Notes under the pieces: model-generated
Told to the model about the DNA's origin: nothing
The model's input: only the letters and a program-made list of their open reading frames with translations
Databases searched by the model: none
Assembly: GCA_963819655.1 (NCBI GenBank)
Contig: CAWFXA010000002.1
Span: 64,001-128,000, forward strand
DNA from: an uncultured Chloroflexia bacterium
GTDB taxonomy: Bacteria; Chloroflexota; Limnocylindria; Limnocylindrales; CSP1-4
Reading direction: 5' to 3'
Length of the DNA stretch: 64,000 nt
Translations under genes and position numbers: made by a program
Part shown: positions 25,527 through 54,681 of the stretch, one piece after another
Layout: the number at the start of each line of letters is the position of its first letter
Numbering within the stretch: the first letter of the stretch is position 1

Positions 25527-25603
25527 CCGCCCGTAGCTCAGTGGATCAGAGCGACTGACTTCGGATCAGTAGGTCGGGGGTTCGAATCCCTCCGGGCGGG
25601 CCA
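25527..25603 (+). tRNA. tRNA-Arg(UCG)
   Basis: Cloverleaf: acceptor CCGCCCG/CGGGCGG, anticodon arm ACTGA-CT-TCG-GA-TCAGT, T-loop TTCGAAT, encoded CCA. Confidence 0.95.
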
Positions 25604-53072: not shown

Positions 53073-53323
53073 CGTGACTGGGGGTCTCGGGTGACGGTCG
53101 GGACGCTGCATCCTGAGGGCGAGGATGCGTTTCGCGCGAGAGGCGAGCAATGGTACGGGGGTCCGGTGCCGGCCCGCCGACCGGCGCGGTGCAGACGGGC
53201 ACCAGCCCACGGCCGGGCCTGTCGGGTGAGGTGTGGTCCGGTGCGGGCCGTGGTCCAACCGGCCGCAGCGGTTACCCCGGTTCGCCCATCGACGCTCGCG
53301 GGCGTGCTCCCGAGGATGGCCAC

Positions 53324-54076
53324 ATGGAGGTCATCCACCCGCCACAGGCAGCCCGGCGACCGTCGATGGCGCCGCTCCTCGGGGGCACCGTCATCGGGAC
53401 CGTGCTCATCGTCGCGGGCATCGTCCTCGCATATGTCGCCCTCGCGACGCCCCTGCTGCGGTCAGTGCTCCCGCAAGGGCGCCTCGACGCTGGTGAGATG
53501 GCGACCGGTGCCGCAGTCTGGGCGATCGCGCTCGTCGCGCCCGCAGGTTTCGTGCTCGTGGGCACGAACCGGCTCGTCCGGATCCTCGCATCGGTCCGCG
53601 GCCGGATCCCTCGGCGGTCGGCGACGATCCGCGCACTCGACGGGGTTGCCGACGACGTCATCGTCGCGACGGGCATCACGCTCCCCGACGGACGGGGCGT
53701 GTCGGAGCTCGTGATCGGGCCGTTCGGGGGCGCCGTCATCCGCGAGCTGCCGCCCACCGCGGTGACACGCATCCGCGAGGGGCACTGGGAGCTCCGCACG
53801 AGGCGCGGTTGGATCTCGATCGAGAATCCGCTCGACCGCGCCGCCCGGGACGCCGAACGCGTCCGACGCTGGCTCGGCCACGACGACGCCGACTTCGTCG
53901 TCAAGGTGTATGCCGCGGTCGTCGGACCCGAGCCGACCGTGCGACGGACGACGGACTGTGCGGTGCTCGACCAAGACCAACTCGTCGCATGGATCGAGGC
54001 GCTGCCGCCACAGCGAAGCCTGACCGAGGGCCGTCGCCAGCAGGTCGCAGAGACGGTTCGCGCCGCCGCCCGCTGA
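53324..54076 (+). CDS. 2-TM membrane protein with degenerate NERD-like domain
   Basis: Two TM helices, then LPDGRGVSELVIGPFGGAVIRE...IENPLDRA, a NERD-like layout without the D/ExK residues. Confidence 0.6.
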   Translation: MEVIHPPQAARRPSMAPLLGGTVIGTVLIVAGIVLAYVALATPLLRSVLPQGRLDAGEMATGAAVWAIALVAPAGFVLVGTNRLVRILASVRGRIPRRSATIRALDGVADDVIVATGITLPDGRGVSELVIGPFGGAVIRELPPTAVTRIREGHWELRTRRGWISIENPLDRAARDAERVRRWLGHDDADFVVKVYAAVVGPEPTVRRTTDCAVLDQDQLVAWIEALPPQRSLTEGRRQQVAETVRAAAR

Positions 54077-54097: not shown

Positions 54098-54173
54098 TGG
54101 TAGGGGAGCCAGGACTCGAACCTGGAACCAGCGGGATATAAGCCCGCCGCTCTAACCGTTGAGCTACTCCCCC
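54098..54173 (-). tRNA. tRNA-Ile(UAU)
   Basis: GGGGGAG-TA-GCTC-AACGGTTA-GAGC-G-GCGGG-CT-TAT-AT-CCCGC-TGGTT-CCAGG-TTCGAGT-CCTGG-CTCCCCT-A-CCA. 76 nt with A73 discriminator. Confidence 0.92.
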
Positions 54174-54222
54174 GCGGCGATGCTACACCCGGAGCGGGTG
54201 CGATCGGTCGAACGCGGCCGGG

Positions 54223-54525
54223 TCAGTCGCCGAGCAGCTTGCCGGCGATCGAGCGAAGGCTCAGGTGCCGCCCGGCCAGCCTGAGGGGCGCATCGTTGCG
54301 GCGGCCATCGGCCCGCCGACCGTCGAGAGCTCCACCACCGGGCGCCCAGGCCCGAGCCGGCAGTGCCGCGGCGAAGGCCCTGTCCGCTTCGGTCTGGAAT
54401 GCCTCGATCGGGAGATCATCCGGATCGAACGGCCGCTCCACCGTCGCCGCCACACCCGGCGGGCGGGCGTAGGCCGGTGCTCCGTAGAGCTTCGGGAGCG
54501 CGACATGCTGCTCGTCGATGGACAC
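54223..54525 (-). CDS. Small hypothetical protein
   Basis: MSIDEQHVALPKLYGAPAYARPP...PFDPDDLPIE, with GAGG before the GTG. Confidence 0.65.
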   Translation of the reverse strand: MSIDEQHVALPKLYGAPAYARPPGVAATVERPFDPDDLPIEAFQTEADRAFAAALPARAWAPGGGALDGRRADGRRNDAPLRLAGRHLSLRSIAGKLLGD

Positions 54526-54681
54526 GCGGAACCTCGAAGGATGATTGCGGTGGTCTCCCTGGATCGCCCGGAAGACACGCCGGATGATGATGCCCAGCGC
54601 AGGGTAGCGGGAATGGTACGGATGGGCTAGACGATCTGGATCGTCGGGTCGGCTTTCGTGTTGCACTTGCGCGACAAGGGC

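What the first reader, a model, noticed from the sequence alone, without database searches (positions are those of the whole stretch)
54098..54173. Rare bacterial tRNA-Ile with UAU anticodon
Seen: a complete 76-nt cloverleaf with anticodon loop CU-UAU-AU, A73 and encoded CCA, in an ordinary chromosomal context with its own -10 box. Established: nearly all bacteria read AUA with lysidine-modified tRNA-Ile(CAU) made by TilS, and UAU isoacceptors are exceptional because U34 risks misreading AUG. U38 in place of the usual A38 also departs from the U36-A37-A38 context favoured for t6A. Inference: this lineage may have lost tilS and solved AUA/AUG discrimination differently.
Basis: partly seen in the sequence, partly recalled or inferred. 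Interest (0 to 1): 0.75.

Follow-up and report, generated by a model that had tools for sequence, protein, structure and literature searches.

The report
Lysidine-free AUA-reading isoleucine tRNA
This is a real isoleucine tRNA with the rare UAU anticodon, and it belongs to a whole order of GC-rich soil and freshwater Chloroflexota that has dropped the 'near-universal' lysidine enzyme TilS, which extends a known rarity to a new, large, free-living lineage.

Summary
Confirmed. Window 54098-54173 (minus strand) encodes a 76-nt tRNA-Ile(UAU) (ARAGORN; Rfam 71.9 bits) with loop CUUAUAU, A73 and an encoded CCA. It is not a sequencing error. The same tRNA, with compensatory stem changes, is present in 44/44 sampled genomes of the family and 5/6 of its sister family.

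The genome has no tilS and only two CAU tRNAs (initiator and elongator Met). In a 151-genome class sample, tilS and the UAU tRNA exclude each other:
- tilS: 0/44 and 0/6 in this order; 45/49, 47/50 and 1/1 in the sister families.
- UAU tRNA: the reverse pattern.

The tRNA is closest to the sister families' Ile2(CAU) tRNA, but it has lost the TilS acceptor-stem marks and never has A38 (U 20, C 30, G 1 of 51).

IleRS is the eukaryote-like type 2. That type is nearly universal in the phylum (391/401), so it may permit the loss but does not explain it. At least three other Chloroflexota lineages lost tilS independently.

Named relatives are Candidatus Limnocylindrales. This is a new member of a known kind (Mycoplasma mobile, Bifidobacterium type). 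The scan has already noted this tRNA in Limnocylindria on other DNA (three notes); the tilS test is new here. How AUG misreading is avoided remains untested.

The parts
54098..54173 (-). tRNA-Ile(UAU) gene, 76 nt. It has G1.U72, G3-C70, A73 and an encoded CCA.
   Evidence: ARAGORN and Rfam RF00005 at 71.9 bits. Covariation in 10 of 21 pairs across 17 orthologues. Present in 44/44 family genomes and 5/6 sister-family genomes.
54136..54142 (-). Anticodon loop C32-U33-U34-A35-U36-A37-U38. The anticodon UAU lies at 54140-54138, and U38 at 54136 replaces the usual A38.
   Evidence: Sequence. Positions 32-37 are invariant in 17 aligned orthologues. Position 38 is U in 20, C in 30, G in 1 and A in 0 of 51 matches. 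Contigs of 4 public runs show no alternative letters here.
54179..54189 (-). Conserved upstream block GGTGTAGCATC. It holds a -10-like hexamer TAGCAT (54180-54185), 6 nt before the mature 5' end. It is the likely promoter of a monocistronic tRNA gene.
   Evidence: Conserved in 19 of 19 genus loci amid diverged flanks. It does not match a full sigma-70 consensus (0 sites).

Best explanation
The gene encodes the only AUA-decoding tRNA of this organism. It is a tRNA-Ile with a genomically encoded UAU anticodon that pairs directly with AUA.

Its lineage is an order of Chloroflexota, class Limnocylindria by the titles of named relatives. The order has lost both TilS and the lysidine-dependent tRNA-Ile2(CAU), which its sister orders still carry.

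The tRNA most likely descends from that tRNA-Ile2 by a C34-to-U change. After that, the TilS recognition pairs in the acceptor stem were erased (C4-G69 and C5-G68 became G4-C69 and G5-C68), G1.U72 appeared, and A38 was replaced by a pyrimidine.

It is presumably charged by the lineage's single type-2 (eukaryote/archaea-like) IleRS. That enzyme reads the wobble base with a C-terminal domain different from the zinc-binding domain of the bacterial type.

AUA is very rare here (about 0.5 per 1000 codons). Any residual U34.G misreading of AUG would therefore be limited by competition with abundant tRNA-Met, and possibly also by the ribosome, by the unusual 32-38 pair, or by an unknown U34 modification.

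Shown: the gene, its conservation, the absence of tilS and Ile2(CAU), the IleRS type, and Ile-like use of AUA. Inferred: charging by IleRS2, the modification state, and the discrimination mechanism.
For: 1. Real tRNA: (10/21 pairs compensatory).

2. No tilS in G000: the best TIGR02432 hit is 18.8 bits against a cut-off of 93.6, and the best PF01171 hit is 19 bits against 27.

3. tRNA set of 50 genes with Ile(GAU), Ile(UAU) and only two CAU tRNAs. One CAU tRNA has C1xA72, A11 and a GGG/CCC anticodon stem, so it is the initiator. The other has C3-G70, so it is the elongator Met (using the discriminators in PMC1635315, passages read).

4. Complementary distribution in the same 151-genome class sample:
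- tilS: f1 0/44, f2 0/6, f3 45/49, f4 47/50, f5 1/1.
- UAU-tRNA pattern: f1 44/44, f2 5/6, f3 0/49, f4 0/50, f5 0/1, with zero hits of the reversed control pattern.

5. Order sample of 81 genomes at least 90% complete: the CAU-type pattern occurs twice in 63, once in 9 and three times in 9.

6. Ancestry:
- In 3 of 5 tilS+ sister genomes, the best BLAST hit of the UAU tRNA is a CAU tRNA with G3-C70, C4-G69 and C5-G68, that is, the Ile2 type.
- The nearest non-UAU relatives by identity are these tRNAs (75.7% and 75.3%), against 71.2% for the genome's own elongator Met.

7. AUA behaves as Ile. At 89 ATA sites (305 paralogue-aligned pairs) the partners are I 22%, V 20%, L 19%, M 7%. This resembles ATC sites (I 25, V 24, L 21, M 3) and not ATG sites (L 25, M 17, V 12, I 9).

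8. IleRS is 1103 aa. It matches TIGR00392 at 645.9 bits and has the DUF5915 C-terminal domain. Its best solved relatives are 8c8w and 1ile, that is, type 2.

9. Precedent: in PMC3575796 (Discussion read), the tilS-less Bifidobacterium and Neorickettsia also have the eukaryote-type IleRS.
Against: - No direct evidence of expression, charging or modification. RNA-library contigs cover the gene but cannot show transcription.
- G000 is 91% complete and in 3 contigs, so absence in this one genome is not proof. The argument rests on the clade pattern.
- One genome of the order (G552) carries an Ile2-type CAU tRNA on a 4.6-kb contig yet has no tilS. This is either contamination or a relic, and it is unresolved.
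- Ile2 ancestry is only moderately supported. In the two f4 genomes the best BLAST hit was tRNA-Trp. The acceptor stem differs from the genome's own elongator Met at only one pair. Identity margins are small on 73 nt.
- Type-2 IleRS cannot be the cause. It is present in 150/151 class genomes and 391/401 phylum genomes, most of which keep tilS.
- AUA rarity is not specific to the tilS-less order either: about 0.75-1.5 against 0.85 per 1000 in small samples.
- M at ATA-aligned sites (7.2%) is higher than at ATC sites (3.3%), on a small sample.
Confidence: 0.85

Rival explanations
1. Assembly or consensus error: the true anticodon is CAT, so this is an ordinary tRNA-Ile2 or tRNA-Met.
For: None found. 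A single C-to-T change would produce it, and the genome is a 3-contig assembly of an uncultured organism.
Against: - ARAGORN finds TAT in 29 of 30 relatives' loci.
- The UAU pattern is in 44/44 + 5/6 genomes of the order.
- Contigs of four independent runs show no other letter at 54136-54142.
- The acceptor stem lacks the C4-G69 and C5-G68 of the sister families' Ile2.
- tilS is missing.
Confidence: 0.01
2. A redundant extra decoder: the UAU tRNA coexists with a lysidine-like system that the searches missed. That system would be either a very divergent or non-homologous C34-modifying enzyme together with a CAU tRNA-Ile2, as in Lactobacillus casei or Cyanothece, which carry both.
For: - Coexistence does occur in the phylum. 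ARAGORN-confirmed tRNA-Ile(UAU) genes are present in the tilS+ genomes G276, G481 and G182.
- G552 of this order has an Ile2-type CAU tRNA.
- PMC3575796 lists bacteria that have both.
Against: - Only two CAU tRNAs in G000, and two CAU-type matches in 63 of 81 genomes of the order. Most third matches are duplicates or are not called as tRNA.
- tilS is over cut-off in 0 of 41, 0 of 50 and 0 of 5 genomes of the order.
- The TilS acceptor-stem determinants are erased in the UAU tRNA.
Confidence: 0.04
3. Same tRNA, different discrimination mechanism: U34 is not bare, as it is in M. mobile, but carries a modification that restricts pairing to A. Candidates are 2-thiolation by the MnmA present in the genome, pseudouridine as in the eukaryotic psi-A-psi anticodon, or an unknown group. 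The switch from A38 to a pyrimidine would be part of the recognition or tuning.
For: - MnmA/TrmU is present (329 bits).
- Position 38 is never A in 51 orthologues, while loop positions 32-37 are invariant in the 17 aligned orthologues. This suggests selection on the loop context.
- The independent tilS-less lineages f27, f56 and G531 keep A38, so the pyrimidine at 38 is a lineage-specific elaboration.
Against: - MnmG is not found and CmoB is not found, so the usual xm5U and cmo5U routes are missing.
- MnmA normally acts on Lys/Glu/Gln tRNAs (recalled, not tested here).
- No candidate new enzyme was identified.
- The one characterised bacterial case has unmodified U34 (PMC3575796 abstract and section 14).
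Confidence: 0.3
4. The tRNA derives from the elongator tRNA-Met by duplication and a C34-to-U change (tRNA remoulding), not from tRNA-Ile2.
For: - The acceptor stem GGGGGAG/CUCCCCU differs from the genome's elongator Met (GGCGGAG/CUCCGCU) at one pair only.
- Both share the unusual G1.U72 and A73.
- Identity to the elongator Met is 71.2%.
Against: - The pair that differs is 3-70. G3-C70 is the Ile-type discriminator, whereas Met and fMet have C3-G70 (PMC1635315).
- The anticodon stem, variable loop and T arm resemble the sister families' Ile2(CAU), and identity to it is higher at 75-76%.
- In f27 and f56 the UAU tRNAs clearly keep the Ile2 acceptor.
Confidence: 0.12

Closest known systems
Mycoplasma mobile tRNA-Ile2(UAU) system (Taniguchi et al. 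2013, PMC3575796; abstract, section 14 passage and Discussion read)
   Same: There is no tilS and no tRNA-Ile2(CAU). A gene-encoded UAU anticodon reads AUA. The tRNA is inferred to derive from tRNA-Ile2 by a C-to-T change at the wobble position.
   Different: M. mobile has a bacterial type-1 IleRS that adapted through an Arg in the zinc-binding domain. Here IleRS is type 2 with DUF5915. M. mobile is a reduced, AT-rich parasite. Here the genomes are free-living, 3.5 Mb and 69% GC, with AUA at about 0.5 per 1000 codons. The trait spans an order of at least 23 genera. Position 38 is a pyrimidine. The modification state of U34 is unknown here.
tilS-less Bifidobacterium and Neorickettsia species with eukaryote-type IleRS (as described in the Discussion of PMC3575796)
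   Same: tilS is lost, a tRNA-Ile(TAT) gene is present, and IleRS is of the eukaryote/archaea-like type. This is the closest parallel in enzyme background.
   Different: The phylum is different. I could not see their tRNA sequences (Supplementary Table S1 was not read), so A38 and the acceptor features cannot be compared. In Chloroflexota, type-2 IleRS is ancestral and nearly universal (391/401), not a special acquisition.
Canonical bacterial TilS / tRNA-Ile2(LAU) lysidine system
   Same: The task is the same: read AUA as Ile without reading AUG. The tRNA body resembles the sister families' Ile2, with G3-C70, a similar anticodon stem and a similar T arm.
   Different: The anticodon is TAT, not CAT. 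C4-G69 and C5-G68 are replaced by G4-C69 and G5-C68, and A38 is replaced. No tilS is present.
Eukaryotic minor tRNA-Ile(psi-A-psi), charged by eukaryotic IleRS
   Same: The anticodon is UAU-type and the IleRS is of the same broad type, as noted in the Discussion of PMC3575796.
   Different: In eukaryotes both anticodon uridines are pseudouridylated. Nothing is known here. No intron is present in this gene.
Bacillus subtilis tilS-deletion suppressor (Kohrer et al. 2014, PMC3919564, abstract only; Fabret suppressor as described in PMC3575796)
   Same: It shows experimentally that a UAU-anticodon tRNA-Ile can replace TilS and Ile2.
   Different: The suppressor derives from tRNA-Ile1(GAU) in the laboratory. 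Here the replacement is natural, ancient and fixed, and the tRNA resembles Ile2.

Membership tests
tRNA (Rfam RF00005) | The cloverleaf covariance model scores above the gathering score. | tested here: met
   71.9 bits against 29. ARAGORN calls it. 10 of 21 pairs covary.
TilS-independent AUA decoding by tRNA-Ile(UAU) | The tRNA gene has anticodon TAT and Ile-type body features. | tested here: met
   Anticodon tat. G3-C70 is the Ile discriminator of PMC1635315. A73 is present. The nearest non-UAU relatives are Ile2-type CAU tRNAs.
TilS-independent AUA decoding by tRNA-Ile(UAU) | No tilS gene. | tested here: met
   No hit over cut-off in G000. In the order: 0/41, 0/50, 0/27 and 0/5. Sister families: 93/100. 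The genomes are incomplete (G000 is 91% complete), so this means 'not found in those searched'.
TilS-independent AUA decoding by tRNA-Ile(UAU) | No tRNA-Ile2(CAU). | tested here: met
   G000 has two CAU tRNAs, classed as initiator and elongator Met. 63 of 81 genomes of the order show two CAU-type matches. One exception is G552.
TilS-independent AUA decoding by tRNA-Ile(UAU) | AUA codons are present and read as Ile. | tested here: met
   401 ATA codons in 2243 ORFs. The paralogue-aligned residue profile is Ile-like, not Met-like. This evidence is indirect.
M. mobile subtype | Type-1 IleRS with a basic residue at the wobble-contacting site of the zinc-binding domain. | tested here: not met
   IleRS is type 2. 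It has a DUF5915 C-terminus and no zinc-binding domain hit, and its best solved relatives are 8c8w and 1ile.
Bifidobacterium/Neorickettsia subtype | Eukaryote/archaea-like (type-2) IleRS is the only IleRS. | tested here: met
   Only one locus passes the TIGR00392 cut-off, and it carries DUF5915.
TilS-independent AUA decoding by tRNA-Ile(UAU) | U34 is unmodified, and the ribosome rejects AUG. | not testable with these tools
   This needs tRNA mass spectrometry and ribosome binding assays. The only evidence here is on gene content: MnmG and CmoB were not found, and MnmA is present.
tRNA-Ile2 (lysidine type) | CAT anticodon, with the C4-G69 and C5-G68 TilS determinants. | tested here: not met
   The anticodon is TAT, with G4-C69 and G5-C68.

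The most novel reading that the evidence does not exclude
This order has evolved a third bacterial way of separating AUA from AUG, different from both lysidine and the bare-U34/ribosome solution of M. mobile. The order is ancient and has many genera. In it the tRNA was rebuilt: A38 is always avoided, G1.U72 is fixed, and the TilS marks are erased. On this reading, either the C32-pyrimidine38 loop geometry or an undiscovered U34 modification enforces A-only reading. The tilS+ sister orders of the same class would offer a natural before-and-after comparison.
Probability: 0.2. Interest if true: 0.8.

Novelty: new member of a known kind. Interest (0 to 1): 0.5.

Why it matters
TilS is treated as essential and almost universal in bacteria. 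A 2026 paper still speaks of 'rare cases' of tRNA-Ile(UAU) and cites only the Mycoplasma work (PMC13752280, passage read).

Here a whole order of free-living, normal-sized, GC-rich bacteria lacks tilS, and at least three further Chloroflexota lineages lost it independently. Lysidine-free AUA decoding is therefore neither confined to reduced parasites nor a one-off.

The clean split inside one class (tilS + CAU against UAU alone, on the same type-2 IleRS background) gives a comparative system for three questions:
- What makes tilS dispensable?
- How does a type-2 IleRS read U34?
- Does position 38 tune decoding?

There is also a practical point. Annotation pipelines and essential-gene or completeness marker sets that expect tilS and three CAU tRNAs will misjudge these genomes.

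Tried and rejected
It was too short. Only 8 of the 80 listed loci were tRNA-Ile(tat) and the rest were chance. Those 8 did give the only taxon names: Candidatus Limnocylindrales, 'Chloroflexia' MAGs and a Chloroflexi MAG.

2. The first strict UAU pattern (W38 plus GGTTCGA) found only 14/44 family genomes. This looked like absence in 9 genera, but it was a pattern artefact (C38, other T loops). Searches corrected it.

3. My first CAU pattern had one N too many. It missed most CAU tRNAs but happened to reveal the elongator Met gene next to tilS.

4. The strict promoter and terminator scan found 0 sites.

5. ARAGORN with introns allowed gave spurious intron-bearing 'tRNAs', which I ignored.

6. 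Read laying: RNA-library contigs of X15 and X16 cover the tRNA, but contigs cannot show transcription, so I make no expression claim.

7. Type-2 IleRS as the cause of tilS loss is rejected, because it is near-universal in the phylum.

8. High GC or AUA rarity as a sufficient cause is rejected. The tilS+ sisters have similar GC (68% against 64-71%) and similar AUA use (small samples).

9. Literature search was badly framed, because the taxon names alone matched. It was replaced.

Full report
THE OBSERVATION

ARAGORN finds two tRNAs in the window. One is tRNA-Ile, anticodon tat, at 54098-54173 on the minus strand. Rfam's tRNA model scores it 71.9 bits against a gathering score of 29.

Read on the minus strand, it is a 76-nt cloverleaf with these parts:
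- acceptor GGGGGAG/CUCCCCU (G1.U72, G3-C70)
- D arm GCUC/GAGC
- anticodon stem GCGGG/CCCGC
- loop C32 U33 U34 A35 U36 A37 U38 (54142-54136)
- a 5-nt variable loop
- T arm CCAGG/CCUGG
- A73
- encoded CCA.

Folding of the single sequence is only modestly better than shuffles (z -2.29). Comparative data carry the argument.

IT IS NOT AN ERROR, AND IT IS UNDER SELECTION

- A BLAST of the 76 nt over 40 relatives returned full-length matches of 96-100% identity in 18 of 24 genomes of the same genus, and of 81-87% in 10 of 16 genomes of a sister family.
- ARAGORN called tRNA-Ile(tat) in 29 of the 30 loci fetched. The 30th is a Thr/Tyr/Thr cluster.
- In an alignment of 17 distinct orthologues from both families, 10 of 21 cloverleaf pairs show double compensatory changes. 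Loop positions 32-37 are invariant, and G1.U72 is kept in 16 of 17.
- Contigs of two DNA runs (soil, sediment) and two RNA-library runs cover the gene and show no alternative letter at 54136-54142. The differences they do show include a compensatory pair, 54133 with 54145 (tRNA positions 41 and 29). Contigs cannot prove transcription.
- Upstream, a block GGTGTAGCATC with a TANNNT-type hexamer (TAGCAT, 54180-54185) is conserved in 19 of 19 genus loci while the flanks have diverged. A strict sigma-70 scan finds nothing.

THE GENOME'S DECODING SET

The window lies in a 3.49-Mb, 69% GC, 3-contig assembly that is 91% complete. ARAGORN lists 50 tRNAs, among them Ile(GAU), Ile(UAU) and just two CAU tRNAs.

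- One CAU tRNA has C1xA72, A11 and a GGG/CCC anticodon stem. It is the initiator.
- The other has C3-G70.

Silva et al. 2006 (PMC1635315, passages read) give the discriminators. G3 or A3 with C70 or T70 marks tRNA-Ile(CAT). C3-G70 marks Met and fMet. C4-G69 and C5-G68 are frequent in Ile(CAT). By these rules the second CAU tRNA is the elongator Met, and no Ile2(CAU) is present.

tilS was sought with TIGR02432 and PF01171 in six frames. The best hits were 18.8 and 19 bits, far below the cut-offs of 93.6 and 27. The control search found tilS over cut-off in all ten bacterial control genomes.

THE CLADE PATTERN

In one 151-genome sample of the class, tilS was found as follows:
- 0/44 in the window's family (f1, 13 genera)
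- 0/6 in family f2, which is in the same order
- 45/49 in f3
- 47/50 in f4
- 1/1 in f5.

In the same sample, a pattern spanning the UAU anticodon loop to the T loop was found in 44/44, 5/6, 0/49, 0/50 and 0/1, with no hit of the reversed control pattern.

My earlier, stricter pattern had suggested absence in nine genera. That was an artefact. ARAGORN confirmed tRNA-Ile(tat) in 5 of 5 genomes of those genera.

In an order-wide sample of 81 genomes at least 90% complete, the CAU-type pattern occurred twice in 63, once in 9 and three times in 9. The third matches fall into four groups:
- duplicates (G121, G549, G535)
- sequences that do not look like tRNAs (G087, G143, G556; judged by eye)
- sequences that ARAGORN did not call (G130, G542)
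- one Ile2-type CAU tRNA on a 4.6-kb contig, in G552.

G552 and four other genomes of the order have no tilS over cut-off. This single exception is unresolved; contamination is the simplest reading.

The f3 and f4 tallies include genomes that the tool flags as unpublished (G139, G145, G102, G126, G156, G131, G122).

WHO THEY ARE

The only names come from the genome-contig scan of a 14-mer. The 8 of 80 listed loci that hold this tRNA are titled Candidatus Limnocylindrales (3), 'uncultured Chloroflexia' MAGs (4) and a Chloroflexi MAG (1). Three earlier notes of this scan on other DNA reached the same taxon.

WHERE THE tRNA CAME FROM

The tilS+ sister families carry three CAU tRNAs:
- the initiator
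- a GGCUGGG... tRNA (C3-G70, elongator Met), encoded next to tilS
- a GGGCCCG... tRNA (G3-C70, C4-G69, C5-G68, so Ile2).

The Ile2 tRNA is the best BLAST hit of the UAU tRNA in 3 of 5 sister genomes. In the two f4 genomes the best hit was tRNA-Trp. After the order's own orthologues, the nearest sequences by identity are these Ile2 tRNAs (75.7% and 75.3%), ahead of the genome's elongator Met (71.2%) and Thr(UGU) (68.5%).

The UAU tRNA keeps G3-C70 but has G4-C69 and G5-C68. The pairs that E. coli TilS requires (as stated in PMC1635315) are therefore gone.

The margins are small on 73 nt. The acceptor stem differs from the elongator Met at only one pair. Descent from Ile2 is the better-supported reading, not a proven one.

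POSITION 38

In the 51 matches, position 38 is U in 20, C in 30, G in 1 (G172, confirmed) and A in none. The Ile2(CAU) tRNAs of the sister families, the genome's own Ile(GAU) and both of its CAU tRNAs all have A38.

Because positions 32-37 never vary in the 17 aligned orthologues, a position that varies freely but avoids A looks like negative selection against A38. The purpose is unknown. I recall from the literature, and did not test, that the 32-38 pair tunes A-site affinity, and that A38 is an identity element for E. coli IleRS.

IS AUA USED, AND AS WHAT?

I built an ORF set of 2243 ORFs of at least 120 aa, chosen for GC3 above 0.80. That choice biases against A-ending codons.
- ATA occurs 401 times, or 0.47 per 1000 codons. 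ATC is at 46.3 and ATG at 15.9.
- 345 ORFs hold at least one ATA.
- In a self-BLAST of these ORFs, 89 ATA sites (305 aligned pairs) face I 22%, V 20%, L 19% and M 7.2%. This is close to the ATC profile (I 24.9, V 23.9, L 21.2, M 3.3) and unlike ATG (L 24.9, M 16.9, V 11.6, I 9.1).

AUA is therefore used, rarely, in an Ile-like way.

THE SYNTHETASE

One locus passes the IleRS model. It encodes 1103 aa and matches TIGR00392 at 645.9 bits. Its Pfam domains are tRNA-synt_1, Anticodon_1 and the C-terminal DUF5915. Its best solved relatives are 8c8w (E 1.3e-178) and T. thermophilus 1ile, and it resembles MupA and MupB. This is the type-2, eukaryote/archaea-like IleRS.

Taniguchi et al. (PMC3575796, Discussion) note that the tilS-less Bifidobacterium and Neorickettsia have this type, while M. 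mobile adapted a type-1 enzyme.

However, DUF5915 is found in 150/151 genomes of the class and 391/401 of the phylum sample, and most of those genomes keep tilS. Type-2 IleRS is an ancestral, possibly permissive background and not the trigger.

MODIFICATION GENES

MnmG was not found and CmoB was not found. MnmA/TrmU is present at 329 bits. This is compatible with a bare U34, as in M. mobile, but proves nothing.

THE WIDER PHYLUM

The phylum sample holds 401 genomes at least 85% complete. tilS was matched in 359. The 42 without a match are the 28 of this order and 14 others.

Among those 14:
- Family f27 is 0/3 for tilS.
- Family f56 is 0/4. This includes G473, which is flagged unpublished.
- G531 also lacks tilS.
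- ARAGORN confirms tRNA-Ile(tat) in G261 and G285 (f27), G361, G466 and G508 (f56), and G531.

Those tRNAs keep the Ile2-type acceptor (C4-G69, C5-G68) and A38, so they look like younger, independent conversions.

Confirmed UAU tRNAs also occur in the tilS+ genomes G276, G481 and G182. This is the 'both' state that Taniguchi et al. proposed as the transition. Five further pattern matches were not called by ARAGORN.

GC content and AUA use do not separate tilS-less from tilS+ members of the class (small samples).

WHAT IS KNOWN

Taniguchi 2013 counted nine species in three clades. PMC13752280 (Oct 2026, passage read) still refers to 'rare cases'.

My searches of the held library found:
- no paper with Limnocylindr* and lysidine
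- four papers with lysidine and Chloroflex*, none on this topic by title (listing only)
- none with tilS, UAU and 'metagenome-assembled'.

Subscription journals and bioRxiv supplements were not searchable. Earlier notes of this scan report the same tRNA in Limnocylindria (three notes; two of them state that tilS could not be tested) and similar systems across CPR bacteria. For two of the CPR notes, a later check marked that part of the claim fell. I did not test the CPR claims.

VERDICT

This is an order-wide, lysidine-free AUA decoding system of the known tRNA-Ile(UAU) kind, in a new phylum and on a type-2 IleRS background. The tRNA is visibly remodelled: no A38, G1.U72, and the TilS marks erased. 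How AUG is protected from U34 is not known.

I class it as a new member of a known kind, of moderate interest. It carries a minority chance (about 0.2) that the remodelling reflects a new discrimination mechanism.

Noticed in passing
window 25527-25603 (+) and G000:C2:1608777-1608852: The genome's arginine tRNA set is UCG (in the window), CCG, GCG, UCU and CCU. ARAGORN finds no tRNA-Arg(ACG) among the 50 tRNAs. Most bacteria use ACG, edited to ICG, and lack GCG (statement in PMC8007984). A TadA-like deaminase is present but scores 108 bits, below the 150-bit cut-off (G000:C2:1614843-1615268). CGN decoding may also be unconventional here.
   Followed up: partly
L256 (G052), L258 (G055), L202-L206 (family f3 and f5 genomes): In the tilS+ sister families, tilS lies directly beside the elongator tRNA-Met(CAU) gene and an initiator tRNA gene. 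It does not lie beside its substrate tRNA-Ile2, which is elsewhere.
   Followed up: no
G552:C102:2356-2428 (locus L284:47-119): One genome of the tilS-less order carries an Ile2-type CAU tRNA (G3-C70, C4-G69, C5-G68) on a 4.6-kb contig, with no tilS found. It is either a binning contaminant or a relic.
   Followed up: partly
G059:C1:192844-192919 and G059:C2:2831-2906: One genome of the family has two identical copies of the tRNA-Ile(UAU) gene.
   Followed up: no
G361, G466, G473, G508 (family f56): In this independently tilS-less family, the IleRS C-terminal DUF5915 domain scores far lower (E 1e-10 to 1e-13) than in the rest of the phylum (typically 1e-20 to 1e-55). Its anticodon-reading domain may have diverged strongly. 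G473 is flagged unpublished.
   Followed up: no
G000:C2:1010835-1010931 and G000:C2:1366936-1367030: ARAGORN also calls a tRNA-SeC(UCA) and an odd 95-nt 'tRNA-???' with a two-base anticodon. The second is not in the Rfam tRNA list.
   Followed up: no
window 54226-54666 (-) and 53150-54076 (+): The ORFs that flank the tRNA (147 aa upstream on the same strand, 308 aa convergent downstream) have no Pfam match. The stop codon of the upstream ORF lies in a stretch (CTGA) that aligns in most of the 19 genus loci.
   Followed up: no
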